A program made the translations under genes and the position numbers. Under the pieces are notes generated by a model that searched no databases, was not told the DNA's origin, and saw only the letters and a list, made by a program, of their open reading frames with translations. 64,000 bases of DNA from Escherichia phage EC150: the sequence record ON210137.1; one strand, written 5' to 3'. This document shows positions 6,775 to 43,471 of the stretch, piece after piece. How positions within the stretch are numbered: the first letter of the stretch is position 1; each line of letters opens with the position of its first letter.

Positions 6775-7981
6775 AATTTGCACTATGGGATTTGCACTAT
6801 GAGTCAAGATTATGTAGCAATGCCTGAAGACTTTGAAGACCCGCGATTTGCAGAGCATAATCAGGCATTATTCGATGAGTTCATTGACCTTGTTATTCAG
6901 GGCCATGACATGCGCGCAGCTTTTGCACTAGTATTTGGCATGGAGGTTGCGACCGATAACTACACTGGCCAGCGAGTCCTCTGCACGCAACGCAATCCGT
7001 ACTACAAGATGCGCTACAAAAAGCGTATGGAAGAGATGCCATTGAAGGAATTGTGGAGCGTAAAGAGTTCCATCCACAATTTAGTGAAGCTTGTGCGTGA
7101 TCCAGAAGTCGCGGCGTCAGCCAAGCTTAATGCCATTCGTGAACTGAATATCATCTACGGCATCACGATGATTGATGAGAATGGCAATAGTAAAATGGGC
7201 CGTTCCATGGACGATTTCTACAAGGATTTTGGAGAGGCAGCCAAAGAGGGTGAGCAATTCTCCCGCCACTAGCCAATTTGCACTATAAAACGGCCCTAGA
7301 ACACATTTTCTCCACTTCTAGGGCCATCGGTAATACGACGGGGAAGGTTACAACCATAAACGCGTTAGAAAGTGTATTATTATAAGTCATCTTTTAGTCA
7401 CTTTACGTAACAATTTACGACCTTCCGCCGTCCAGTCGAACGACTCCACCAGCAGATTTGCACTATAACCTAAGACGATGCGCCCTTTCTCGTTATCGAC
7501 CCGCCAACAAGTCTCGAATAGCATTCGATTTGCACTATTAACTATCGCCGCAACGCGCGCTGGGTAAGCGCAATTTGCACTATGGTCGTAAAGGGATAAG
7601 GTGCGACCACTTCCGATGGACAACGTAGCGATGAGAATAAGCGTATTCATAAGCCACCAATTTGCACTATGAAAAGCGACCCCGAAGGGCCGCCATTCGA
7701 TTAGATGATCTGGAATGTGTATGACTTGTTGCCGAACTCGAAGTTCAAGCGCCCAGCTTCCTTAAGCTTCATGCGGAAGCGAATGTGCTTGCTATCCGGT
7801 AATCCCAGCGCGATGAAAGCTACGCGGACCGATTTGAACTCGCCTACACCCTCGACCATAACGCCGTTACGGGTGAGACGCTTTTGCGCCACTTCCTTAT
7901 TATCCCAACTTTTTGCAATGCCTTCGCTATTCGAACGGCGATGGGAAGAAGTTCCATTTTGCACTACGCAATTTGCACTAT
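6775..7981 (+). repeat. array of 9 same-orientation copies of an AATTTGCACTAT-like 11-12-mer
   Basis: Copies at 6775, 6790, 7275, 7456, 7528, 7572, 7659, 7956 and 7970; irregular spacing; two copies overlap the start of the 6799 gene. Confidence 0.6.
6799..7272 (+). CDS. hypothetical protein (157 aa), possible regulatory or DNA-binding protein
   Basis: ATG embedded in a motif copy and downstream of the near-consensus promoter; function is inference only. Confidence 0.5.
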   Translation: MSQDYVAMPEDFEDPRFAEHNQALFDEFIDLVIQGHDMRAAFALVFGMEVATDNYTGQRVLCTQRNPYYKMRYKKRMEEMPLKELWSVKSSIHNLVKLVRDPEVAASAKLNAIRELNIIYGITMIDENGNSKMGRSMDDFYKDFGEAAKEGEQFSRH

Positions 7982-10769: not shown

Positions 10770-11018
10770 TTAATTGTGACGATTGGATTCATCAATCGAT
10801 ACCAATTGTGCAGGGTTGCCGGATACCGTTGCGCCGATGATTCCCATTTGAGAGAAAAATTCTGAATAAACCTCTTTCCAGTACTTGCGCGCTGCTTTCT
10901 GGGCTTGACCTTTGCGCTTATAACTTTTGCCTTGAAAGATGAAGCGGTCTTTTGGAGCGTAATACTCCACCACACCTTCCAGCCATTGTAAGAATGCTAC
11001 TGATTCATTTTTATTCAT
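10770..11018 (-). CDS. hypothetical basic protein (82 aa)
   Basis: Minus-strand ORF in accessory block. Confidence 0.4.
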   Translation of the reverse strand: MNKNESVAFLQWLEGVVEYYAPKDRFIFQGKSYKRKGQAQKAARKYWKEVYSEFFSQMGIIGATVSGNPAQLVSIDESNRHN

Positions 11019-11025
11019 GTTAACC

Positions 11026-11481
11026 TCAATATTTTAATAAGAAAGCGCCCAACCAACTTTCCTCAATCTCGCGGCCAGTAGCCACACGGTCGGTCTTTGA
11101 TATGGGTCTGGATTCGCCACAGGGCAACCCGTCCTGTAGTTGTGTACTATTGCCAATCCTCACCAGAACCTTTCCATCAGGGTCGATATAAGCGCGACAA
11201 CCCATGATTTCGAGTCGTTGTAGACACTGGCGAATCGTTTTCAGCTTCTCACCGGACCTGATAGAGCGCGGTCGCGACCGCTGACCGTTCTTATTCACTT
11301 TGCGCTTTGCAACCGGAATATCATTGATGCGCTGCGACTTGGGTCGATAATAGGCTTCTTCGCCAGGAGTTGCACCTGGCGTCAGTTCGCGTTTGAGATC
11401 CTTTTCAATATCGATGATCATGATTATGCCGCTGCAGCGTAAACAATTGCATAAGCAATTCCAAACAGCGCAGCAATACAT
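11026..11481 (-). CDS. hypothetical basic protein (about 151 aa)
   Basis: Start set at first ATG (11481); track ORF begins with TTG at 11493; Cys-rich N-terminus, Arg/Lys-rich middle. Confidence 0.4.
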   Translation of the reverse strand: MYCCAVWNCLCNCLRCSGIIMIIDIEKDLKRELTPGATPGEEAYYRPKSQRINDIPVAKRKVNKNGQRSRPRSIRSGEKLKTIRQCLQRLEIMGCRAYIDPDGKVLVRIGNSTQLQDGLPCGESRPISKTDRVATGREIEESWLGAFLLKY

Positions 11482-11522
11482 ACCGTGCCCCAAAATGCAA
11501 AGCGTCGTGACTCTTTATCCAT

Positions 11523-11768
11523 TTATTTATCCCCCAACGTCCATGAATTAAACACTAATTTTGCCATTTCATCTTGTGAAACCACATTATAGTGCTTAGG
11601 CAAATCGCTTTCTGATAATACCTTCTGGGCTTCTTCTTTTGTCTCAAAGAGAGGGATGAAAAAGACCAAGCGGTTATCTTCAGGATCAATGCCGCAGATG
11701 ACGTATTTTGGCAATGCTTTTGCTTTTTGAGTCTTATCAATATCTTCAAATTTCATAATACACCTCAC
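11523..11768 (-). CDS. hypothetical protein (81 aa)
   Basis: ORF immediately downstream of the tail-fibre gene on the same strand. Confidence 0.45.
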   Translation of the reverse strand: MRCIMKFEDIDKTQKAKALPKYVICGIDPEDNRLVFFIPLFETKEEAQKVLSESDLPKHYNVVSQDEMAKLVFNSWTLGDK

Positions 11769-11810
11769 TTGTTAACGTATAATGAGTATAACTTAATCGA
11801 GCATAAAGTA

Positions 11811-11830
11811 AAGGCGCTTTTCAGCGCCTT
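11811..11830 (-). terminator. putative terminator after tail-fibre gene
   Basis: Hairpin AAGGCGC/GCGCCTT with 5-nt loop, then a T-rich stretch on the minus-strand transcript. Confidence 0.4.
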
Positions 11831-11837
11831 GAGTGAA

Positions 11838-14153
11838 TTATTTTGCTGATTTCAGCACGGCTATCTCTGCCTTGAGTTCATCAATCTGATCCATCAATGC
11901 GAGAATAGCCTCGTGGTGCAATGCCGCTGCAACGCCGTAAGTGTCAACTGACTTGATATCTTCGACAACAGTCCCATCCTTGAGTTCCGTGTTTGAATAT
12001 TTCAAAGTTTTTACTGCGTCAGGAAATACACCTTCTACATCTTGAGCTATAAATCCGATGCCATTCGGTTTCTCTGACTTATCAAGGCGCTCCCAAGTCA
12101 CACCCTTGATCAATCTCATCTTTCCTAACGGGTCGGAAATCCTTTGAATATTTGTTTTGACCCTCTCATCAGACGTGCTGACCCAGTTCCCTGCAGTAGC
12201 AGTACCATCAGGCATAAATTTGAAATCTGCTGCAGCGCCTTGCCCATTGTTTATGGATATTTGCGCGTGCATCAAATCAGTTCCAGTACCTCGAACGCCT
12301 CCGAATGTATAGCTGCCAGCATACCAATCCCCTGAAAAATATGATACATACCCAGGCGTTGACTGGTTGAAGTTTATCATCCTCATACCGTTGCTTTCAT
12401 ACGCTGAAACGCCTACTGAATTCAACGGTTGCACAACAAGGTCTTTTGGTCTGAGATATGCATTAACATTCAGCGCCCCGTCTGTCCTTTCCGTACTAAT
12501 TTGATTTATGGAGTTAGGGAAATAAAATGTGCCATCTTGCGCAAACTTCCATTCTTGCACCCCATTAGATATCACAGCACCTTGTTCAGACGTTAATCCA
12601 TCAATCTTACCGTATGCTTGCAAGAATGCTTGATACGCAATGTTGGTGCCAATTTTATATTCAGATTTTACACTGCCGCCACTGACAAGCGTTCCGGTTG
12701 CAGGTTTTACTGCGTCACCATTAATAACGCTCCAAGTCGTATTCGCAGCAGCAAATCCACCCGATGCACGAATCACCCAAACGCCTACAAAGTTACGACC
12801 CATTATTTCACTGTTTGAACGGCCATAAACCGGACTTACTCGCGAAGCATCAAAACTCACCCTAATAACACCATTACCAGTTACCGGTTCTGGTGACAAT
12901 GGTGTTTCTACCTGACCCGGTACAATAGCACCCGTCTGCCCGTAGGCGACGACGCCACCAATATCCCCGTAAATGTTTGGTGCAGCTGAATCAAACACAA
13001 CACCATCAGCGTTGGAGTTTGCGGTGCCATTTCCTGCGCCGTCACCTCGTCCATAAAGAGCGGCTAATGAACCGACTTGAACGCCGTTTTTGTCGGGCAC
13101 ACGGAAAGTCGTTGAGCCATTACCAAGAGAATACTTTCCGCGCTTTGTTGGGTCCGCAAGCCAATCCGCATCAGCAATAGGAGTCAGCATTTGAGCATAT
13201 GCCCAAAGCTCAGGCCAGTCTGCGCGGTTAAGCAATTGCCCGTCTGCAACAACTTCATATGGCTGGATGTAAGCACGGCTATCACGAAGATGAAAATCAC
13301 CAACACCATAGTTCATTACACCGTTCATGTTCGGTCCAACGGTGCCAGTGTTGATAAGGTTTTCAACCCAACGTTTAGTCGCAGCATCATAATCATTCAC
13401 AGGGTCACCAGCAAGCGGAGTTGGGCCTGTCGGTCGAATATTCAACCAAGCCTGCGCATTATCCCCTGATCCTGTGCCGCCCATGGAAGTGGGCACGATA
13501 TTTTGATCAGCGACTTGTCCGAATCCAAAAGCAGACTTCATGCCCTGAATAGTACTCTGCCCTGTGCCACCGTTTGCCACTGGTACTACATCAAGTTCGC
13601 TATAAACCTTTTTCCAAGGTGACCAAAAGTCGCCATTAAATACCCTGTTGTATTCAGGGCCAACCGTTGCTGTGTATTTTTGTGAACAAGCATTTGCTGA
13701 AATTTGGATTACTTCCAATACTCCAGACGATAAGGTTGGGTAGTTCAAAGCAGGTGATGCTGATAGACTGTTCGGCTGGTAATATTGGCCAAACCATGAA
13801 CCAGTCAAAGCATTGAGATTTATTCCGTTAGGAATCTCTCCAAAGTTTCGGACAGTACCCGTCAAAGTCGCAGCAGTAGTTCGAATGGAAAGCATGTCGC
13901 CAGCCGCCCATGCACGCGCTGCAGTTCCTTCCTGTGCACGCTGCACGGTCAGGACGTTTCCAACAACGGCTGTTACTGTGACGATTTCGAATTGGAGGCC
14001 TGTCGCAGCGTCTACGATTGTCGCCACTACACGCTCGTTTGCAGCCAAGGTCGGAAATCCCGACCCTGAGCGAATTGTGATTGTGGTGTCTGAAGTCGTC
14101 GTTGGCTGAGCGAGCGCGACCTCAAAGTTGTTTTTGAATATTAGCCTTGGCAT
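11838..14153 (-). CDS. tail fibre/tailspike with C-terminal intramolecular chaperone (peptidase S74-like) domain
   Basis: 771 aa; DAATKRWVE collar-like motif; Gly/Ser/Thr-rich body; C-terminal SDERVKTNI...ISDPLGK...GVTW...GFIAQDVEGVFPDAV typical of auto-cleaving chaperone domains. Confidence 0.85.
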   Translation of the reverse strand: MPRLIFKNNFEVALAQPTTTSDTTITIRSGSGFPTLAANERVVATIVDAATGLQFEIVTVTAVVGNVLTVQRAQEGTAARAWAAGDMLSIRTTAATLTGTVRNFGEIPNGINLNALTGSWFGQYYQPNSLSASPALNYPTLSSGVLEVIQISANACSQKYTATVGPEYNRVFNGDFWSPWKKVYSELDVVPVANGGTGQSTIQGMKSAFGFGQVADQNIVPTSMGGTGSGDNAQAWLNIRPTGPTPLAGDPVNDYDAATKRWVENLINTGTVGPNMNGVMNYGVGDFHLRDSRAYIQPYEVVADGQLLNRADWPELWAYAQMLTPIADADWLADPTKRGKYSLGNGSTTFRVPDKNGVQVGSLAALYGRGDGAGNGTANSNADGVVFDSAAPNIYGDIGGVVAYGQTGAIVPGQVETPLSPEPVTGNGVIRVSFDASRVSPVYGRSNSEIMGRNFVGVWVIRASGGFAAANTTWSVINGDAVKPATGTLVSGGSVKSEYKIGTNIAYQAFLQAYGKIDGLTSEQGAVISNGVQEWKFAQDGTFYFPNSINQISTERTDGALNVNAYLRPKDLVVQPLNSVGVSAYESNGMRMINFNQSTPGYVSYFSGDWYAGSYTFGGVRGTGTDLMHAQISINNGQGAAADFKFMPDGTATAGNWVSTSDERVKTNIQRISDPLGKMRLIKGVTWERLDKSEKPNGIGFIAQDVEGVFPDAVKTLKYSNTELKDGTVVEDIKSVDTYGVAAALHHEAILALMDQIDELKAEIAVLKSAK

Positions 14154-14191: not shown

Positions 14192-14533
14192 TTAATTTCT
14201 TTTGAGAGGAATATGGCGGTTGCTGTCATTATTTGGTTTAATAATGAGCATAAAAACGATTAGAAAGATGATGGCTGATATACTTAATTCAATCAGCGCG
14301 GCTTGAGATATAGATTGATCTTCATGATACTGCTTTTGCATTTCTGCTTTCTTCTGAGCGCAAACTTCAGGTGATATGTAATCGCCTTTTGAGTTGCCAT
14401 AATAAATCTCGCCATTCTCAGAAATAAGCCTGCCGCAAATATCCGTGTCAGCCTTTGCGCTTGACATCATAATAACGGTGCCGATGATAGCGGCAATTGT
14501 CCAGATTAGCAGTTGTGATAAGGTATTATTCAT
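14192..14533 (-). CDS. membrane protein (113 aa)
   Basis: Hydrophobic segments at N-terminus and near C-terminus. Confidence 0.5.
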   Translation of the reverse strand: MNNTLSQLLIWTIAAIIGTVIMMSSAKADTDICGRLISENGEIYYGNSKGDYISPEVCAQKKAEMQKQYHEDQSISQAALIELSISAIIFLIVFMLIIKPNNDSNRHIPLKRN

Positions 14534-14728
14534 GATAACCTCTTTAATTCCCTTCCCATATCGGGAAGGGTGAATATTATTTTACGCGAAAGAATAGGCG
14601 CGTGCCACACAGCGAGTCCCAACGGCCCTCACCATCCCATATCGACCCAACACCAGCGGTGATTGGGCCAGCAGAATTGGCGGCATTGGCCCAGGCTAGA
14701 CGTTTCAACTTCCAACTGCACCAACGAT

Positions 14729-14962
14729 TCACATTTCATCTCCAGATTGCAAAACAAGTCCCGCATAGATGATTGCTAAAGCTAAAGGCGCACCACTTCC
14801 CGCCTCTCTGTTCTCTTTAATCTGAAGAGCATCCTTAAGGAATTGCAACTGAACGTTGAATTCATTTTCAATTCCAAGCACTCCAGACAATCCTTTTACA
14901 GAATCTGCATATGCCTTGTCTAGCACTTCTTTTGGTACTGTTAAAGTCAATTCATTTGCCAT
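14729..14962 (-). CDS. hypothetical protein (about 77 aa)
   Basis: Start adjusted to internal ATG (MANELTL); overlaps upstream gene by a few nt. Confidence 0.35.
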   Translation of the reverse strand: MANELTLTVPKEVLDKAYADSVKGLSGVLGIENEFNVQLQFLKDALQIKENREAGSGAPLALAIIYAGLVLQSGDEM

Positions 14963-15173
14963 TTTCTTTCCACTCCACGAATGTACTGCCACTTGTTTCT
15001 CTATTTAGCAGGTATCTGCCGCGCATTCCATGAAGGCTGAACTCAACCGTCGATGGATTAGATTTTGAAAGCCACATCACTTGACCGTCGAATGGTCCGC
15101 CGATGCATGTGTATTTGGCCTTTGGCTCACTCCTTTTGGGTCGCTTTGCCCGCTCTTTGATTGATAGTCTCAT
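14952..15173 (-). CDS. hypothetical basic protein (73 aa)
   Basis: ORF abutting the stop of 15173-15388. Confidence 0.4.
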   Translation of the reverse strand: MRLSIKERAKRPKRSEPKAKYTCIGGPFDGQVMWLSKSNPSTVEFSLHGMRGRYLLNRETSGSTFVEWKENGK

Positions 15174-15388
15174 CAGTCTTCACCTTGAGATTCAAGACAA
15201 GTAAGGACAAGCCACGTCATCGGAAGAATCAAAACCAGAGAAATAAGTGACCAAATGGACCAACACAAGATGACAGACTTGAATGTGTGAACGTCGCCAA
15301 ACGTAGCAGTGAAACAAAATCCCATTACGAAAGCAATCGCTGTGGAGTGATTATCAATGGCTTTGATGGCGCGGTCGATGAGTTTCAT
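15173..15388 (-). CDS. small membrane protein with two predicted transmembrane segments (holin-like)
   Basis: 71 aa; hydrophobic stretches TAIAFVMGFCFTATFG and VILCWSIWSLISLVLILPMTWLVLTCL; holin role is inference. Confidence 0.4.
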   Translation of the reverse strand: MKLIDRAIKAIDNHSTAIAFVMGFCFTATFGDVHTFKSVILCWSIWSLISLVLILPMTWLVLTCLESQGED

Positions 15389-15566
15389 ATTACCTCCGGT
15401 TTTGAGTTAATATGATTATAATGCAGAATTTCAGAAAGGCAAACTTTTTGTGAATTTAAATTAAAAAAATGGCCAGAAATAATCTGGCCAAAAAGATCAC
15501 CCTTTATCCACTACTAAGCTGGAATCATAATTTTACTTGATATAGCTGTCTCAAGCAAACTATAAT

Positions 15567-17027
15567 ATGAATAAAATATTAACACATAATTGGAAAGTCA
15601 TGTACCAGTTGAATCCTGCTTTAAGAGAAGTCTGGAAGACGAAAGCGCGATACAAAGTCATATACGGCGGTCGTGCATCTTCCAAATCGCACGATGCCGC
15701 TGGTTTTGCTATTTATTTGGCGGCAAACTTCAAATTAAAATTCCTTTGCGTTCGACAATTCCAGAACAAGATTTCTGAATCAGTATATACGCTATTAAAA
15801 GACAAAATAGAAATTTCTGATTTCAAAGACGAGTTCAACTTATTAAAGAACTCTATTGAACACAAAAGAACAAAATCTGAATTCTTATTTTACGGTATCG
15901 CACGCAACGTTGATGAAATCAAATCAACAGAAGGCGTTGATGTTCTTTGGCTTGAAGAAGCGCATGCGCTGACTGAAGAGCAGTGGGACATCATTGAGCC
16001 GACAATTCGTAAGGAAGGGTCCGAAATATGGATCATATTTAACCCTGATGAAGAGGCTGATTTTGTCTACCAGAACTTTGTCATGCGACCGCCGAAGAAT
16101 GCCATCGTTAAGAAGATTAACTGGCAAGACAACCCATTCTTGTCGCAAACAATGCTGGATGTTATCGCTGGCATGTATGAGCGCGACCCGAAAAAGGCAG
16201 AACACGTTTATGGCGGAGTACCGAAGACTGGCGGCGACAAGTCGGTAATCAACCGTGCATTCGTCAAGGCCGCGCTAAACCTCCACAAACACCCTACGCT
16301 GGGATGGAGCTTGTCAGGGTCTAACCGTATAGGCTTTGACGTGGCGGACGACGGCGACGACTTAAACGCCACAGCATTTGTCACTGGCAACGTATTGCGC
16401 GGCATCAAGACATGGGAAGGTCTGGAGGATGAATTGCTTAAGTCCGCAAGCGGAGTCTGGAAAGACGCATTGACATTCGGCGCATCAATCACCTATGACG
16501 CCATCGGTGTTGGTGCATTTGCTGGTTCAAAATTTGATGAGCTTAATGAGTGTGCAATCCATGAAAATCCAACATTCCCAAGAATCGAATTTAATGCGTT
16601 CAACGCGCAAGGTGCTGTTGATGATCCTGATGACGTTTTCCTTGAGTTACCACACGTTGAAATACTCAATAAAGACCATTTCGCAAACATAAAAGCGCAA
16701 AAATGGACTGAGATTGCCGAACGATTCAGAAAGACATATGAGTATGCGACAGGGCAAGCCGTATATCCGACCGATGAGTTGATTTCCATCGACACAGACG
16801 GCATCCCAGAACTTGGTATTCCCGCTTGGTCTGCGGAAGAGATTGAGACGTTTCTTTTTGAGATGTCAGCGCCGCGCAAAGATACGTCTGTTCTTGGTAA
16901 GTTCAAAGTTGAATCGAAAAAAGATATGGCAAAGCGTGGAGTCAAATCGCCTAACAAAGCGGACGCAGCAATCATGGCATTGATGAAACCAATTGTTGCA
17001 GCATCCGGCTTCTTCTCTAACCTTTAA
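15567..17027 (+). CDS. terL: terminase large subunit
   Basis: 486 aa; Walker A-like GGRASSKS; LWLEEAH Walker B-like; C-terminal nuclease-like region with acidic residues. Confidence 0.9.
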   Translation: MNKILTHNWKVMYQLNPALREVWKTKARYKVIYGGRASSKSHDAAGFAIYLAANFKLKFLCVRQFQNKISESVYTLLKDKIEISDFKDEFNLLKNSIEHKRTKSEFLFYGIARNVDEIKSTEGVDVLWLEEAHALTEEQWDIIEPTIRKEGSEIWIIFNPDEEADFVYQNFVMRPPKNAIVKKINWQDNPFLSQTMLDVIAGMYERDPKKAEHVYGGVPKTGGDKSVINRAFVKAALNLHKHPTLGWSLSGSNRIGFDVADDGDDLNATAFVTGNVLRGIKTWEGLEDELLKSASGVWKDALTFGASITYDAIGVGAFAGSKFDELNECAIHENPTFPRIEFNAFNAQGAVDDPDDVFLELPHVEILNKDHFANIKAQKWTEIAERFRKTYEYATGQAVYPTDELISIDTDGIPELGIPAWSAEEIETFLFEMSAPRKDTSVLGKFKVESKKDMAKRGVKSPNKADAAIMALMKPIVAASGFFSNL

Positions 17028-38934: not shown

Positions 38935-41673
38935 ATGCAAAAGTTTGACACAAACCTGTTGCAAAACCTTAAGTGGATGCAGAACAACGCGCCAAACATC
39001 ACATCTTTGGTTCAGAAGAAGAGTGATTGGTATGAGCGATATCAAGATCAGTTTTGGATTGACTGGTACAAAAACATATTCAACATTGATACTTGTGATG
39101 CAATGGGCATCTATATTTGGTGCGACATCCTATGCATACCAAGAGACTTTGTTGACTTAAGTAACTATGAGCACAACTGGGCATTCGGGCCAACACGCGA
39201 CAACTTTGAAGGGCCGGACAATATCGGCGGCAACTTCTTTGGTGCTGGCGGAAAGGTTGTGAAAAACATTGAAGAAGCGCGCATCCTTCTGAAGCTTCGT
39301 TATCTGACGCTTACAAGTGATGGCCGCATCGAAAGCATCAACCGTATGCTTAAGTGGATTTTTAACCGTGGGGAAGCTTGGGATTACTCTTCATCCCGAT
39401 ACGCATATGTGACAGACAATACTCAAGGCGCGGTGTCTTCTTCTGAATCAACAAACGGTTCATTCCTTCTGTATGACTGGCAGGGGTCGACTGAGATTCA
39501 GCACGATTATAAACAAATTCTTTTGAGTCACGGCAACAACGCAGGACTTACCATAAGTGGGGTGGCAGGGACTGTTTCGCGAATGGCACACCCAGACTGG
39601 TATTCATGGGGTAATGGGTCCGGCGCTGGTATTGTCGGCGGTGATACACGCCAATATGGCGGCCCTGACTATTACGGCCAACTGTGCGGTGATTACCCAG
39701 GAGAGGCCATAGAGAATTTCGCCAACGCAGTACGGGTCATCAAGACTGCTTCCAGCGGCGAGCCTGTGTATTCTTTGGCCAGTAATCCAAGTGCCCAATC
39801 TATTGCGCTTCCTTCTCAGGCTGGTGTCAACGTTTGCTATAGCTTCTACATAAAAGTGCTTTCTGAAAACGTGGCTTCTGTTTCCGTAACAGAGAACAGT
39901 GATGCATCGAGTAATGGAAAACTTTTCGACCCAGTGACTGGGCAGTTCAACCTTGACTCTTCTTTGAGTTATTTCATCACAGGCAAGTTCGACGGTGTGA
40001 GAAGGGAATCAAACCGTGGTGGCATCAAGGCAATCGGCGGCGATTGGTACAGAATCTGGATTGTAGAACAAACTGCGAACGCGACAGCTGGGGTAAACAC
40101 AAGCTTTTCAATTGAGTTGAAAGCAACTGCCGCTGGATCAACCCAGACTCGCGAATTGCCTGAAGGGTCTGATGCACTTCTTTTTGGATACTCCATTTGC
40201 GTTTGCGACCCTGTTCAGAATCCTAATGGGCCTGAGCCTTATTTCTATGGGACTCAAAATCCGCCTGCAGATGGAACAGCAATTTTGTCTGTCACGGCAG
40301 GAACGCTCAACAGCATTTCTTGCGCAAACGGTCCGTTGACGACAAGAAATGGCGTGGTGGGCGAGTCATTTATGCAGCCTGGGTCATCACTTGCGTACTC
40401 TGGTTCAATCGGCGGCTACCCGTACCCAGGAAACGCCACTCTAATCGCAGAAACAGACGGAATCAGACGCTCATGGAACGTTAGCCGATTGGACGGAGTA
40501 CCGCCGCCGCCGACCGCTGACTATTACATGGAATACGTCATCGGGCCTTATTTCGCCAACAACTTGTCTGATAACTTTAAGACGCTAGTTGGTGACAGGA
40601 ATGAAGGATTCTTGCCAGCAAATGCCGGAATACGTTGGCAGCTTTACCAAGAAGTCGCAGACTTATCTGATATTGATTTGACTGTCAGCAACATAACAGA
40701 CACGCGAGTAGGATTCGAAACGGAAGGTGTCGCATGGATTAACACTGACGGCATCATCAGAGTTGGCGGCATTAACGAGTGGCCGTTGAACAACTTCAAA
40801 GGTGTTATACGACAGCTTGAGTCTTTGAAAGGTGTGAACCAAGTTATCGACGGCGCACTTGTCAACGACTATTCAATCTCAAAAGCATCAAGAGATGACT
40901 TTGGTCGTGAAATCCCACGTGCCGCGATCACAAACTACTGGCGATACACACAGCCCAATGACGGCACATCTTTTGGCAACATCGTCAAGGACGGAGACAA
41001 CACGGTAACGGCAACGCCAATAAGCGGTGTGCCCAACCAGTTTCCATCATTCAAGCTTTCCGCTACAATAGGGACTGTGCCAGCGTCCGGCTATGCACGC
41101 GCTGTACTTGCTACTAAATACACTGGCAGCCTGACTGGTCCTTTGTCATTTATCGCAATAGTTAAAAACAACACGGTAAACGGTCAAAAACTTTTCGTAA
41201 CCGTACCGGATGGTATGGGCGGCTATATCCCTAAATTCTACAGCATAGGCGCAGGTGATTTGCAACGTATCGAAATTGACCTTGCCGCTGAGATTGTTGC
41301 AGGAACGACTTGGGATGGTTCGACGGGTGGAGTCAGTATTGGTTTGATATCAGGGAAAGACTTGCCGACCGAAGTTGGTACGACTCTTGAACTTGATATT
41401 TTAAGCTTGATGCTTGTTTCTGGTAATACGATGAATGCGCTTGCGATTTCAACAAGCGAAGATTTTGCAAAGAAAACTGCAACTTCTATATACATCAAAA
41501 ACCCAGGGTCACTGGCGACTGGAGTGCAATTGATAGCTTCGAATGGGGATGTTGTAGCGACAGTAAACTTTCCAAGAAGTGCTGCTGGCGGTTATGTTTC
41601 AAGCATGAATATAACTGACTTAACTGGTGATTGGGCATCAACCCTTTTATCAAAAATTAAATACATCGTGTAG
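38935..41673 (+). CDS. baseplate wedge / tail-fibre-associated structural protein (912 aa)
   Basis: Large Gly/Ser/Thr/Asn-rich protein downstream of baseplate J-like gene. Confidence 0.55.
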   Translation: MQKFDTNLLQNLKWMQNNAPNITSLVQKKSDWYERYQDQFWIDWYKNIFNIDTCDAMGIYIWCDILCIPRDFVDLSNYEHNWAFGPTRDNFEGPDNIGGNFFGAGGKVVKNIEEARILLKLRYLTLTSDGRIESINRMLKWIFNRGEAWDYSSSRYAYVTDNTQGAVSSSESTNGSFLLYDWQGSTEIQHDYKQILLSHGNNAGLTISGVAGTVSRMAHPDWYSWGNGSGAGIVGGDTRQYGGPDYYGQLCGDYPGEAIENFANAVRVIKTASSGEPVYSLASNPSAQSIALPSQAGVNVCYSFYIKVLSENVASVSVTENSDASSNGKLFDPVTGQFNLDSSLSYFITGKFDGVRRESNRGGIKAIGGDWYRIWIVEQTANATAGVNTSFSIELKATAAGSTQTRELPEGSDALLFGYSICVCDPVQNPNGPEPYFYGTQNPPADGTAILSVTAGTLNSISCANGPLTTRNGVVGESFMQPGSSLAYSGSIGGYPYPGNATLIAETDGIRRSWNVSRLDGVPPPPTADYYMEYVIGPYFANNLSDNFKTLVGDRNEGFLPANAGIRWQLYQEVADLSDIDLTVSNITDTRVGFETEGVAWINTDGIIRVGGINEWPLNNFKGVIRQLESLKGVNQVIDGALVNDYSISKASRDDFGREIPRAAITNYWRYTQPNDGTSFGNIVKDGDNTVTATPISGVPNQFPSFKLSATIGTVPASGYARAVLATKYTGSLTGPLSFIAIVKNNTVNGQKLFVTVPDGMGGYIPKFYSIGAGDLQRIEIDLAAEIVAGTTWDGSTGGVSIGLISGKDLPTEVGTTLELDILSLMLVSGNTMNALAISTSEDFAKKTATSIYIKNPGSLATGVQLIASNGDVVATVNFPRSAAGGYVSSMNITDLTGDWASTLLSKIKYIV

Positions 41674-41683
41674 AGGAACGGCA

Positions 41684-43471
41684 ATGCCAACACTTATTAA
41701 CAGACCTTTCGCGCAAAGCGGTGATGTATCCGTGGTGCCGGATGCAAGCCCAAGCGGTTATGTGAACTTCCAGCGCGGCTACACCCCTGACTATGCACTT
41801 GCCCTGGAGGCTGGAAACGTCGCCGCGAAAGCTGTTGAGCGCGAATCAATGAACTGGTTGCTGAATTTGATTACAGACAACCTTATGTTTATTCAAGATC
41901 ATGGCGCTCAACAATATTTCTCTTCTGACTTGAAGCCGGATGGATACCCGAAAAACGCCATCGTAGTAAGCAACTCTGGAACGCCTTCAGCGCCTGAGTG
42001 GCGCATCTTTCAAAGCGTGGTCGACGGCAACACAAGCGCCGTACCAGCTAACGGAGAAACGGAATCTTGGCAGGAATTAACGTTGCCCAGCGAAGCGCGA
42101 AAATACATTCCGATGCCTGCTGGCGGCGATGCGCAAAACCCGTACTTTGTTCGCGGATTGATTTCAAGTTTTGTGGACTTCGATAATATTACGACTTCCA
42201 CCACTATTGTAATTCAATCCGATTCCGTCGCTGCTCTGTGCTCTAACATCCCGAATGCGGTTGGCGCAACGAAGGTTGCAGGTCGGCTGCAGGTCTGCGC
42301 TTGGCAGGTCGATGCACAAACATTTGCCTTGCAGCAATATACATCAATGAATGGCTATTTGTTTACTCGCTCTTACACTTCTGGTGCTTGGAGTGCTTGG
42401 ATTCAAAATGCCACTGTTCAAGACGTGCAAATCGGAACTCCAAACCTTGCATCTGGTAAAGGCGCGCAAGATATAATCCTCACCGTTCCAGCAGGGTATT
42501 CATGGCCACCTTCTGCGGGTAGTCGTTTGACCATCGTCAATGACGTGACTACTACCGGACCTGTCACCGTGACCATTGGTGTAAACAAAGTTGCCGTTCT
42601 TGGATTCGACGGCGGCGAGTTACCAGCTGGCGCTATCGTAGGCTTGTTGCCATTCACCATCATTTATGACGGCGCTGTTTGGCGTCTCCTTCAGGCATTT
42701 GGCGCGGCGCAAATCGGCGTTGATGCTACTGAGCCGCAACAGTTTGTTACAAAGCGCCAACTCGATGCTTTGGCTGCGAAGTTGATCACTATGGGTGATG
42801 TATTCGAAGTAGGTGAGACTCGATTCCTCACCAACGGGACCAACCCAAACACTAAACTGGGCGCTTACGGTCAGGTATGGACACGACTTCCTGATAACAT
42901 GGTCATCAGAACATCTGGCACGGCGCGAAACGGTCTTGCCACTGGCGGCGCGGACTCTGTTACTCTTACCGCCGCCATGCTTCCTCTCCACAATCACAGC
43001 GTCAACATAACAACGCGCCAGAGCGGACCATGGTCCAATACAACTGGAGACGCAGGTAACCATAACCACACAGGCGATACAAGCCAAAACGGCGCTCACG
43101 TCCACGGTATGGATGCAGCAGGGAATCACCATCACGACAGCGGTTGGGGAGAGTCAAACGTTCAAGATGCAAGGTACGGCGTTTATGATGGAACGCAAAA
43201 CAACTTCGGAAGTCGAAAGGGCGGCGACTGGGATAACTACAAATACAATACTTCAACTAATGGCAACCATGTCCATAATATTCAATCTTCTGGATCACAC
43301 ACCCATGGTTTGAATATAAATTACGCTGGTAATCATAGCCATGGCTATACACTTCCCGCTCACACTCACGATGTGGTCGGGAATACTGGCGATGCAGGAC
43401 AGTTGGTGCCAACGGCTGTTGCGACTTTGCCGCGATACGTTGTTTTGAATGGCTGGTACAGAAGCGCATAA
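41684..43471 (+). CDS. tail fibre with His-rich repeated C-terminal region
   Basis: 595 aa from ATG after GAGGAA; C-terminal HNH...NHNHTGD...HVHG...NHHHD...NHVHN...SHTHG...NHSHG...HTHD repeats. Confidence 0.7.
   Translation: MPTLINRPFAQSGDVSVVPDASPSGYVNFQRGYTPDYALALEAGNVAAKAVERESMNWLLNLITDNLMFIQDHGAQQYFSSDLKPDGYPKNAIVVSNSGTPSAPEWRIFQSVVDGNTSAVPANGETESWQELTLPSEARKYIPMPAGGDAQNPYFVRGLISSFVDFDNITTSTTIVIQSDSVAALCSNIPNAVGATKVAGRLQVCAWQVDAQTFALQQYTSMNGYLFTRSYTSGAWSAWIQNATVQDVQIGTPNLASGKGAQDIILTVPAGYSWPPSAGSRLTIVNDVTTTGPVTVTIGVNKVAVLGFDGGELPAGAIVGLLPFTIIYDGAVWRLLQAFGAAQIGVDATEPQQFVTKRQLDALAAKLITMGDVFEVGETRFLTNGTNPNTKLGAYGQVWTRLPDNMVIRTSGTARNGLATGGADSVTLTAAMLPLHNHSVNITTRQSGPWSNTTGDAGNHNHTGDTSQNGAHVHGMDAAGNHHHDSGWGESNVQDARYGVYDGTQNNFGSRKGGDWDNYKYNTSTNGNHVHNIQSSGSHTHGLNINYAGNHSHGYTLPAHTHDVVGNTGDAGQLVPTAVATLPRYVVLNGWYRSA

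What the first reader, a model, noticed from the sequence alone, without database searches (positions are those of the whole stretch)
11838..14153. Tail fibre with auto-cleaving chaperone domain encoded away from the tail module, on the opposite strand
This 771-aa fibre has the C-terminal chaperone/peptidase S74-type signature (about nt 11841-12230) and its own terminator, yet sits 25 kb from the main tail genes, which already include a His-rich fibre. A separately encoded, independently transcribed receptor-binding protein suggests a horizontally exchanged host-range module or a second adhesin.
Basis: partly seen in the sequence, partly recalled or inferred. Interest (0 to 1): 0.5.

Follow-up and report, generated by a model that had tools for sequence, protein, structure and literature searches.

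The report
Known variable Wifcevirus side tail fibre
This gene encodes the well-conserved-in-position but highly variable second tail fibre of an E. coli phage of the genus Wifcevirus (phage EC150), a host-recognition protein with a self-cleaving folding domain that was already described for this genus in 2025, so the finding is correct but ordinary.

Summary
In detail: a 771-aa ORF (11838-14153, minus strand) with a C-terminal Peptidase_S74 chaperone domain, a hairpin after the stop codon, and a separate His-rich fibre 27 kb away in the tail module. The window is Escherichia phage EC150 (Wifcevirus); the protein is 100% identical to its deposited 'hypothetical protein'. It is the orthologue of the 'T-shaped' dual-receptor-binding fibre described for Wifcevirus by Humolli et al. 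2025 (PMC11990801). All 16 relatives examined carry the gene at the same locus between terL and the terminal-repeat region, with near-identical flanks; Pbunavirus PB1 and Kylevirus PA1 lack it. Across 118 orthologues the anchor (aa 1-100) and RBD1 base are one allele each. The knob, RBD1 tip, RBD2 and chaperone have 22, 30, 17 and 13 alleles, giving 70 combinations of the first three; RBD2 and chaperone are co-inherited. Ser661 and Lys666 are invariant. Orthologues were detected by mass spectrometry, and vB_Eco4M-7n needs O157 O-antigen. So this is a second adhesin whose internal domains, not the whole gene, are exchanged horizontally. It is already known; interest is low. The allele counts, the variable knob and the host/module pattern are small additions.

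The parts
11838..14153 (-). Complete gene for the variable ('T-shaped') lateral tail fibre, 771 aa, 81.8 kDa precursor
   Evidence: 100% identical to Escherichia phage EC150 protein P0001
13854..14153 (-). N-terminal anchor domain, aa 1-100 (baseplate attachment, inferred)
   Evidence: 93-100% identical in all 118 orthologues, one allele. Matches the N-terminus of the 8jov_1 tail fibre at E=1e-6 alone and 6e-11 with a profile. Found at 35-55% identity in podophage fibres, none in Pbunavirus
13524..13853 (-). Pyocin-knob-like domain, aa 101-210; hypervariable (22 alleles)
   Evidence: phmmer hit to R2 pyocin fibre 6ct8 at E=8e-8. It is the only confident part of the AF2 model, and the top Foldseek hits are R1/R2 pyocin fibres at E=1e-4. 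Allele count
13074..13523 (-). Conserved base of receptor-binding domain 1, aa 211-360
   Evidence: 89-99% identical across orthologues, one allele. About 80% identical to DT57C LtfA and 84% to FFH1
12804..13073 (-). Variable tip of receptor-binding domain 1, aa 361-450 (30 alleles; the EC150 allele is rare, 4 of 118)
   Evidence: closest named relatives are podophage Bas89 (76%) and WFH (73%)
12648..12803 (-). Semi-conserved connector, aa 451-502
   Evidence: 8 alleles
12174..12647 (-). Receptor-binding domain 2 (distal tip), aa 503-660; 17 alleles; the EC150 allele is 98% identical to FEC19
11841..12173 (-). Intramolecular chaperone / Peptidase S74 domain, aa 661-771 (12.2 kDa). Predicted nucleophile Ser661 (12171-12173) and base Lys666 (12156-12158)
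   Evidence: Pfam PF13884 E=7e-13. Profile hits to the S16 fibre IMC 6f45 and the MYRF domain 7dc3. Ser and Lys invariant in 118/118. Co-inherited with RBD2, AMI 0.84
11811..11830 (-). Terminator-like hairpin directly after the stop codon
   Evidence: annotated as a terminator in the WFC record
11785..11812 (-). Promoter-like element (TTTACT-16-TATACT) for the downstream small genes. Together with the hairpin it forms the conserved 3' flank of the variable cassette
14192..15388 (-). Upstream small genes of the same leftward cluster (71, 73, 87 and 113 aa ORFs listed, plus a ~51-aa ORF annotated in relatives), probably co-transcribed with the fibre gene
   Evidence: tight or overlapping spacing, same order in all relatives; no family matches
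15415..15442 (-). Sigma70-like promoter candidate (TTGCCT-16-TATAAT, 10/12) at the head of the leftward cluster, in the gap divergent from terL
41684..43471 (+). The other, conserved fibre of the tail module (595 aa, 8 HxH motifs), for comparison

Best explanation
The gene encodes the variable lateral ('T-shaped') tail fibre of a Wifcevirus myophage (Escherichia phage EC150). The proposed mechanism has five steps. (1) A 771-aa precursor trimerises. (2) The C-terminal S74 intramolecular chaperone (aa 661-771) templates folding of the distal tip. It then cuts itself off before Ser661 using a Ser661-Lys666 dyad, leaving a ~70-kDa mature fibre and a 12-kDa fragment. (3) The invariant N-terminal anchor (aa 1-100) plugs the fibre into the baseplate. 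(4) The two receptor-binding domains (RBD1, with its tip at aa 361-450, and RBD2 at aa 503-660), and possibly the variable knob (aa 121-210), bind host surface glycans, chiefly O-antigen, and set the host range. (5) The conserved HxH fibre of the tail module serves a more constant role. The gene sits at a fixed, genus-specific locus inside a leftward cluster of small genes next to terL. Host-range change happens by homologous recombination that swaps internal domain cassettes between the conserved anchor/5' flank and the conserved 3' flank (terminator plus promoter), with donors in unrelated phage families. Shown here: gene, domains, synteny, mosaicism, invariant dyad. Shown by others for orthologues: presence in phage preparations and O-antigen dependence. 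Inferred: cleavage, trimer shape, which domain binds what, and transcription.
For: Identity and domains. Prior description for the genus, including a conserved N-terminus, variable RBDs and IMC, and a second HxH fibre: PMC11990801. Synteny: same locus in 16 Wifcevirus genomes. Flanks: 70 nt upstream and ~80 nt downstream are near-identical. DNA identity to relatives is 0.91-1.0 in the flanks and falls to 0.45-0.6 inside the gene. Modules in 118 orthologues: anchor and RBD1 base one allele each; knob 22, RBD1 tip 30, RBD2 17 and IMC 13 alleles; 70 knob/tip/RBD2 combinations; RBD2-IMC AMI 0.84 against 0.22-0.40 for other pairs; Ser661 and Lys666 invariant. Cross-family sharing: DT57C LtfA aligns over profile positions 235-775; FFH1, EP335 and Bas89 are 55-84% identical per module. 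Genus-specific locus: no large ORF at the equivalent place in PB1 or Pantoea PA1, and no anchor homologue in Pbunavirus. Experiments on orthologues: vB_Eco4M-7 gp27 gave 34 peptides and 80% coverage, the highest score among the table rows read, and ECML-117 gp24 gave 18 peptides (PMC7048862). vB_Eco4M-7n requires the O157 antigen, tested with rfbE mutants (PMC11074155). The four BASEL Wifceviruses require the O16 antigen.
Against: Autocleavage is not shown. All six tryptic peptides of the chaperone domain were found in the Eco4M-7 MS data. That fits either an uncleaved protein or a released fragment left in a preparation that also held non-structural proteins. The trimeric T-shape and the 'gp12-like' and 'T5-like' folds could not be checked, because the AF2 monomer model failed with mean pLDDT 37. 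Pfam Collar was only a weak hit (E=0.28). No receptor data exist for EC150 itself. Assigning O-antigen types to single modules fails for Bas89. The transcription unit and its timing are inferred from consensus scans only.
Confidence: 0.88

Rival explanations
1. The whole gene is a recently acquired mobile cassette (a moron with its own promoter and terminator) peculiar to this phage, rather than a fixed part of the genus genome.
For: It sits on the opposite strand, away from the tail module, and a terminator-like hairpin follows it. The locus is absent from PB1 and Pantoea PA1, so it was acquired once in the past.
Against: The gene is at the same position with the same neighbours in all 16 Wifcevirus genomes examined. 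The anchor is one allele in 118 orthologues, many of them on contigs of ~68 kb. Flanks are near-identical. No integrase, transposase or repeat was sought or seen at the borders. The acquisition is old (at the root of the genus) and only the internal domains move now.
Confidence: 0.04
2. It is an enzymatic tailspike (an endosialidase or other depolymerase), as the SP13 record's name 'endo-N-acetylneuraminidase' implies.
For: The SP13 orthologue is annotated as endo-N-acetylneuraminidase. The S74 domain was first described in endosialidases.
Against: The only Pfam family above threshold is the chaperone domain; no sialidase, pectate-lyase or other catalytic domain was found. All 25 listed PHROG hits are fibre, tail or baseplate families or have no assigned function. 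PDB relatives are fibres: DT57C LtfA, pyocin fibres and a fibre in entry 8jov. The name is an annotation carried over from the chaperone domain.
Confidence: 0.04
3. It is a structural fibre with a constant mechanical role, and host range is set by the HxH fibre of the tail module instead.
For: Both are fibres, and no receptor-binding assay exists for EC150.
Against: This fibre is the divergence hot-spot of an otherwise 91-100% identical region, with 17-30 alleles per binding module. The HxH fibre is reported as highly conserved across the genus (PMC11990801, S9B Fig). Phages isolated on O157 or O16 hosts share modules of this fibre.
Confidence: 0.04

Closest known systems
T-shaped tail fibre of Wifcevirus phages (Gp114 of ManiWeber/Bas99; Humolli et al. 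2025, PMC11990801)
   Same: Orthologue. It has the same locus, the same start (MPRLIFKNNFEV), an anchor 96% identical and an RBD1 base 91% identical. The domain order is the same: anchor, RBD1, RBD2, C-terminal chaperone.
   Different: The alleles of the variable modules differ: knob 53%, RBD1 tip 42%, RBD2 16-17% and chaperone 30-32% identity. ManiWeber depends on the O16 antigen; the EC150 receptor is unknown.
Tail fibre of Escherichia phage FEC19 (host E. coli O157:H7)
   Same: Best full-length match in the phage collection, 84% overall. RBD2 and chaperone are 98% identical and the anchor 98%.
   Different: Knob 54% and RBD1 tip 43% identical. The FEC19 RBD1 tip is the allele shared by the four O16-dependent BASEL phages.
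LtfA of T5-like phage DT57C (PDB 8hqz chain d) and fibres of FFH1, EP335 and Bas89
   Same: Homologous over the whole RBD1-RBD2-chaperone part (profile positions 235-775 against LtfA 541-1067, E=1.5e-150). Identity per module is 55-84%. These fibres mediate O-antigen-dependent infection (PMC10713586; EP335 as cited in PMC11990801).
   Different: The N-terminal attachment is entirely different. LtfA anchors by a lasso and coiled coil to the LtfC ring of a siphophage, and EP335 and Bas89 attach to a proximal fibre of a podophage. The homologous part of LtfA was not resolved in 8HQZ.
Peptidase S74 intramolecular chaperones of endosialidase endoNF, T5 pb1 and S16 gp37 (established knowledge; 6f45 hit)
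   Same: A C-terminal domain with Ser and Lys five residues apart at its start, placed after a trimeric tip. The Pfam match is above threshold.
   Different: Cleavage is not demonstrated for any Wifcevirus fibre, and the upstream tip is a different domain.
R1/R2 pyocin fibres (6ct8, 6cl5, 6cl6)
   Same: Residues 101-188 match the pyocin knob by sequence (E=8e-8) and by fold search (E=1e-4).
   Different: Here the knob lies near the N-terminus and is hypervariable (22 alleles). The rest of the protein is unrelated to pyocin fibres.

Membership tests
Peptidase S74 / intramolecular chaperone auto-cleaving domain (PF13884) | Significant match to the family model above its curated threshold | tested here: met
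   aa 661-715, E=7.1e-13, 49.1 bits against a cutoff of 22. The profile also hits the 6f45 fibre IMC (E=3e-7) and the MYRF domain 7dc3.
Peptidase S74 / intramolecular chaperone auto-cleaving domain (PF13884) | Domain at the extreme C-terminus, directly after the fibre tip | tested here: met
   It starts at Ser661 and runs to residue 771 of 771.
Peptidase S74 / intramolecular chaperone auto-cleaving domain (PF13884) | Catalytic Ser with Lys five residues downstream at the cleavage site (as in endoNF and T5 pb1; recalled knowledge) | tested here: met
   S661-D-E-R-V-K666. Ser and Lys are invariant in 118/118 orthologues although the domain falls to 25-30% identity.
Peptidase S74 / intramolecular chaperone auto-cleaving domain (PF13884) | Actual autoproteolytic release of the domain after trimer folding | not testable with these tools
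   Published MS of the Eco4M-7 orthologue contains all six tryptic peptides of the domain. The sample also held non-structural proteins, and the site-spanning peptide is too short to see. This is uninformative either way.
Wifcevirus T-shaped dual-RBD tail fibre (PMC11990801) | Orthology and conserved genomic position between terL and the terminal-repeat region, opposite strand | tested here: met
   Same neighbours and spacing in 16 genomes. Flanks are near-identical.
Wifcevirus T-shaped dual-RBD tail fibre (PMC11990801) | Highly conserved N-terminal anchor with variable RBD1, RBD2 and IMC | tested here: met
Wifcevirus T-shaped dual-RBD tail fibre (PMC11990801) | RBD1 homologous to T4 gp12 distal domain (SSF88874) | tested here: inconclusive
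   No direct hit to T4 gp12 in the PDB searches. Pfam Collar reached only E=0.28. The Mansfield record notes SSF88874 for its orthologue. The region is ~80% identical to DT57C LtfA.
Wifcevirus T-shaped dual-RBD tail fibre (PMC11990801) | T5 pb1-like fold of RBD2 and the T-shaped trimer | not testable with these tools
   Only monomer AF2 is available, and the model failed (mean pLDDT 37). The paper itself says RBD2 is not recognisable from sequence.
R-type pyocin fibre knob domain | Sequence and fold similarity to the knob of R1/R2 pyocin fibres | tested here: met
   6ct8 E=8.4e-8 for aa 101-188. Foldseek 6cl5/6cl6 E=1-2e-4, from the only confident segment of the model. NCBI names relatives 'pyocin knob domain-containing S74 family peptidase'. 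The NCBIfam scan itself gave no hit.
Endosialidase / depolymerase tailspike | A catalytic glycosidase or lyase domain | tested here: not met
   No such Pfam domain and no such PDB relative.

The most novel reading that the evidence does not exclude
The fibre is a combinatorial multi-specificity adhesin in which up to three modules (knob, RBD1 tip, RBD2) each recognise a different surface glycan. A single fibre could then open two or more O-serotypes. Within Wifcevirus the RBD1-tip allele tracks O16 dependence and the RBD2 family tracks O157 hosts. On that reading FEC19 should use both antigens, and EC150 (RBD2 98% identical to FEC19, with a rare RBD1 tip and knob) should infect O157 plus an unknown second serotype. 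The hypervariable pyocin-like knob, not singled out in the passages of the 2025 paper that I read, would be a third specificity determinant.
Probability: 0.25. Interest if true: 0.45.

Novelty: already known. Interest (0 to 1): 0.2.

Why it matters
Wifceviruses are candidate biocontrol and detection agents for E. coli O157. Their host range is largely set by this fibre's O-antigen recognition. Knowing that the fibre is built from independently swappable modules between two conserved recombination handles makes host-range prediction and engineering straightforward: swap the RBD1 tip, or swap RBD2 together with its cognate chaperone. For the scan itself, the value is negative. The unusual placement of a fibre gene is the normal, published architecture of this genus, not a new system.

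Tried and rejected
(1) AF2 monomer prediction of the whole fibre with a 26-sequence alignment failed, with mean pLDDT 37 and pTM 0.23. It was unusable except for the knob, so the T-shape and the gp12-like and T5-like folds could not be tested. A second job was not spent, because the failure is expected for an intertwined trimer. (2) The Foldseek search of that model gave only the pyocin-fibre hits as significant; the rest is noise. (3) The NCBIfam scan gave no hits for either fibre. (4) Pfam and PHROG scans of the small neighbouring genes gave nothing. (5) I looked for a recurring promoter motif matching the conserved TTAAGGYTATAATAC upstream of the fibre. There were 5 matches at 3 or fewer mismatches against 2.4 expected, so no evidence of a shared late promoter. 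(6) I tried to use the published MS peptides to decide whether the chaperone is cleaved off. Its peptides are present, but the sample was not a clean virion preparation and the diagnostic peptides are too short. (7) I tried to map O-antigen type to single modules. The pattern is suggestive within Wifcevirus, but the O16-dependent podophage Bas89 carries an RBD2 of the 'O157' family at 55% identity. (8) No tRNA genes were found in the window. (9) I considered and rejected the endosialidase, recent-moron and constant-mechanical-fibre readings (see rival explanations).
Full report
OBSERVATION. The window carries an intact ORF at 11838..14153 on the minus strand (ATG start, 771 aa), with a GAGGA ribosome-binding site 8 nt upstream. 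Pfam finds one family above threshold: Peptidase_S74, 'chaperone of endosialidase', at aa 661-715 (E=7e-13, 49 bits against a cutoff of 22). PHROG 6921 'tail fiber protein' matches end to end (E=6e-216). An 8-bp GC-rich hairpin with a GAAA loop lies 7 nt after the stop codon (11830..11811; dG -13.6 kcal/mol, z=-3.2). The tail module lies on the plus strand from about 28 kb to 43.5 kb: sheath, lytic tail/tape-measure protein, hub and wedge. It ends with a fibre (41684..43471, 595 aa) that has 8 HxH motifs and 17 histidines in its last 160 residues. The N-terminal half of that fibre matches the gp47 tail fibre of Pseudomonas phage Pa193 (9b45_2, E=3e-32).

WHAT THE WINDOW IS. The region is ~93% identical in DNA to Wifcevirus myophages such as FEC19, Ro157lw, ECML-117, WFH and Mansfield. 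The fibre protein is 100% identical to 'hypothetical protein [Escherichia phage EC150]' on a 68,034-bp contig. EC150 (ON210137) is an ICTV-ratified species, Wifcevirus EC150, in the family Lindbergviridae.

ALREADY DESCRIBED. Humolli et al. 2025 (PMC11990801) report that Wifcevirus phages carry two fibre sets. One is conserved, lies in the tail locus and has HxH motifs (Gp32 of ManiWeber). The other is a 'T-shaped' fibre (Gp114 of ManiWeber) with an N-terminal baseplate anchor, a gp12-like RBD1, a T5-like RBD2 and a C-terminal intramolecular chaperone. They also report that the N-terminus is highly conserved while the RBDs and, to a lesser extent, the chaperone vary and are transferred horizontally. 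The finding is the EC150 orthologue of that fibre.

ANATOMY, TESTED HERE. PDB sequence searches split the protein into modules.
- aa 4-97 match the N-terminus of a 439-aa 'putative tail fiber protein' in entry 8jov. From memory this is Ralstonia podophage GP4, which is consistent with the tblastn hit to GP4.
- aa 101-188 match R2/R1 pyocin fibres (E=8e-8).
- aa 229-502 are ~80% identical to LtfA of the T5-like phage DT57C (8hqz_d).
- With a 26-sequence profile, the LtfA match extends over positions 235-775 (E=1.5e-150).
- The chaperone part also hits the S16 long-tail-fibre chaperone (6f45) and the MYRF auto-cleaving domain (7dc3).

The part of LtfA that is homologous to this fibre was not resolved in 8HQZ, so no experimental structure covers it. 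A monomer AF2 model failed (mean pLDDT 37). Only the knob reached pLDDT 70-80, and its only significant fold matches are the pyocin fibres. The chaperone begins S661-D-E-R-V-K666, with the Ser-x4-Lys spacing of the catalytic dyad known from endoNF and T5 pb1 (recalled knowledge). Cleavage there would give a 69.6-kDa mature fibre and a 12.2-kDa fragment.

SYNTENY AND ORIGIN. In 16 Wifcevirus genomes the gene order is the same: terL on one strand and, diverging from it, five or six small genes, a 113-aa putative membrane protein, the fibre, then more small genes. The 70 nt upstream and ~80 nt downstream of the fibre gene are essentially identical in 13 phages. Two phages have a different hairpin loop with the stem intact. 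DNA identity to seven relatives is 0.91-1.0 in the flanks and falls to 0.45-0.6 between about 13800 and 12000. The equivalent leftward small-gene cluster next to terL holds no large ORF in Pseudomonas phage PB1 (Pbunavirus) or Pantoea phage PA1 (Kylevirus). The anchor domain has no Pbunavirus homologue. Outside Wifcevirus it occurs only at 35-55% identity, mostly in podophage fibres. So the gene was inserted once, at or before the root of the genus, and has stayed in place since.

MODULE SHUFFLING. I aligned 118 full-length orthologues from the large protein database, many of them on ~68-kb contigs, and clustered each module at 80% identity.
- Anchor (aa 1-100) and RBD1 base (aa 211-360): one allele each.
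- Knob (aa 121-210): 22 alleles.
- RBD1 tip (aa 361-450): 30 alleles.
- RBD2 (aa 503-655): 17 alleles.
- Chaperone: 13 alleles.

There are 70 knob/tip/RBD2 combinations among the 118. RBD2 and the chaperone are co-inherited (adjusted mutual information 0.84), whereas all other pairs are loosely linked (0.22-0.40). Ser661 and Lys666 are invariant in all 118. As an example, FEC19, ManiWeber and HansTraber share one RBD1-tip allele (96-97%) but have three unrelated RBD2 types (10-17%). EC150's own four-module combination is unique in this set. Its RBD2 and chaperone are 98% identical to FEC19. Its RBD1 base is 98% identical to WFH. Its RBD1-tip allele occurs in 4 of the 118 and its knob allele in 10. 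The tip's closest named relatives are the podophage Bas89 (76%) and WFH (73%). The tight RBD2-chaperone linkage fits a chaperone that must match the tip it folds. The conserved anchor with its 5' flank, and the conserved 3' flank, are the obvious recombination handles.

FUNCTION: EVIDENCE FROM ORTHOLOGUES. Mass spectrometry of vB_Eco4M-7 found its orthologue gp27 with 34 peptides and 80% coverage, the highest score among the table rows I read, and ECML-117 gp24 with 18 peptides (PMC7048862). The samples also contained helicase and endolysin, so they are not strict virion proteomes. All six tryptic peptides of the chaperone domain are in the supplementary table, and the diagnostic peptides across the cleavage site are too short to detect, so processing remains untested. 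vB_Eco4M-7n needs the O157 antigen, as shown with rfbE mutants and complementation, and tolerates a C-terminal tag on gp27, which gave the strongest signal of the tagged proteins (PMC11074155). On my reading that tag sits on the fragment that is cut off. The four BASEL Wifceviruses need the O16 antigen.

HOST/MODULE PATTERN. The four O16-dependent phages share the RBD1-tip allele (96-99%) but carry two unrelated RBD2 types. The four phages isolated on O157 share one RBD2 family (56-78% to each other, 9-18% to the rest) but have four different RBD1 tips. FEC19 carries both, and EC150 carries the FEC19 RBD2. Fibres of FFH1 (O157:H7 host) and EP335 (reported to bind O157 antigen) belong to the same RBD2 family at 57-59%. 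However, so does the O16-dependent podophage Bas89 at 55%. The mapping is suggestive only, based on few and related phages.

TRANSCRIPTION. The gene cannot be co-transcribed with the tail module, because it is on the other strand. The best σ70-like promoter on its strand (TTGCCT-16-TATAAT, 10 of 12) lies at 15442-15415, in the gap divergent from terL. The genes from 15388 to the fibre are tightly packed, and the hairpin follows the fibre. The most likely unit is therefore a ~3.6-kb leftward operon ending with the fibre, not a monocistronic gene. A conserved TATAAT lies 30 nt before the fibre start, but that motif does not recur elsewhere in the genome. None of this was measured.

VERDICT. The feature is the published, genus-typical second fibre of Wifcevirus, and the protein is already in GenBank, so novelty is 'already known' and interest is low. 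The modest additions here are the allele counts from 118 orthologues, the hypervariability of the pyocin-like knob, the near-identical flanks, the absence of the locus from sister genera, and the host/module pattern.

Noticed in passing
window 38935-41673 (+): The 912-aa baseplate protein matches Pa193 gp46 'baseplate wedge 2' (504 aa) and E217 gp45 (500 aa) only over aa 4-185 (DUF2612 at aa 10-146). The Wifcevirus protein is ~400 aa longer than its Pbunavirus counterparts. Since the extra fibre is also genus-specific, this extension is a candidate docking site for it.
   Followed up: no
window 14192-14533 (-): A 113-aa ORF lies directly upstream of the fibre gene (38-nt gap). It has hydrophobic stretches at both ends, and the Eco4M-7 record notes a signal peptide and transmembrane domain. 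It is conserved in most relatives but matches no Pfam or PHROG family, and its function is unknown.
   Followed up: partly
window ~6800-7270 (+) versus 15567-17027 (+): By synteny with phage Mansfield, the small terminase gene lies about 8 kb from the large terminase gene. The leftward cluster containing the fibre sits between them, and in Mansfield the small terminase gene is inside the predicted 3.7-kb direct terminal repeat.
   Followed up: no
window 10800-11800 (-): The small genes just downstream of the fibre form a second plastic zone. DNA identity to relatives dips to 0.56-0.71, and ECML-117 and RCIP0319 carry a different first downstream gene (MEIKLLSDF... instead of MKFEDIDK...).
   Followed up: partly
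window 41627-41683 (+): The mechanical ORF call for the HxH fibre starts at a GTG at 41627 and overlaps the preceding gene by 47 nt. The likely true start is the ATG at 41684 (MPTLINRPF...), where the match to Pa193 gp47 begins.
   Followed up: partly
L008 (vB_Eco4M-7) fibre C-terminus; PMC11074155: The published HiBiT tag that gave the best O157 detection signal was fused to the C-terminus of the fibre orthologue. That places it on the S74 chaperone fragment predicted to be cleaved off, which may explain why the phage stayed viable and the signal was strong.
   Followed up: no
L002, L003, L010, L016, L017 (fibre genes of FEC19 and Bas98-101): FEC19, isolated on O157:H7, carries the same RBD1-tip allele (96-97%) as all four O16-dependent BASEL Wifceviruses, together with the RBD2 family shared by O157 phages. 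This predicts that FEC19 may use both antigens.
   Followed up: partly
protein database hits P0002-P0120: Many of the 120 listed orthologues lie on ~68-kb contigs from public read-archive assemblies, although the 2025 literature counts fewer than 20 sequenced Wifcevirus isolates. The genus is much more common in sequence data than in culture collections.
   Followed up: no
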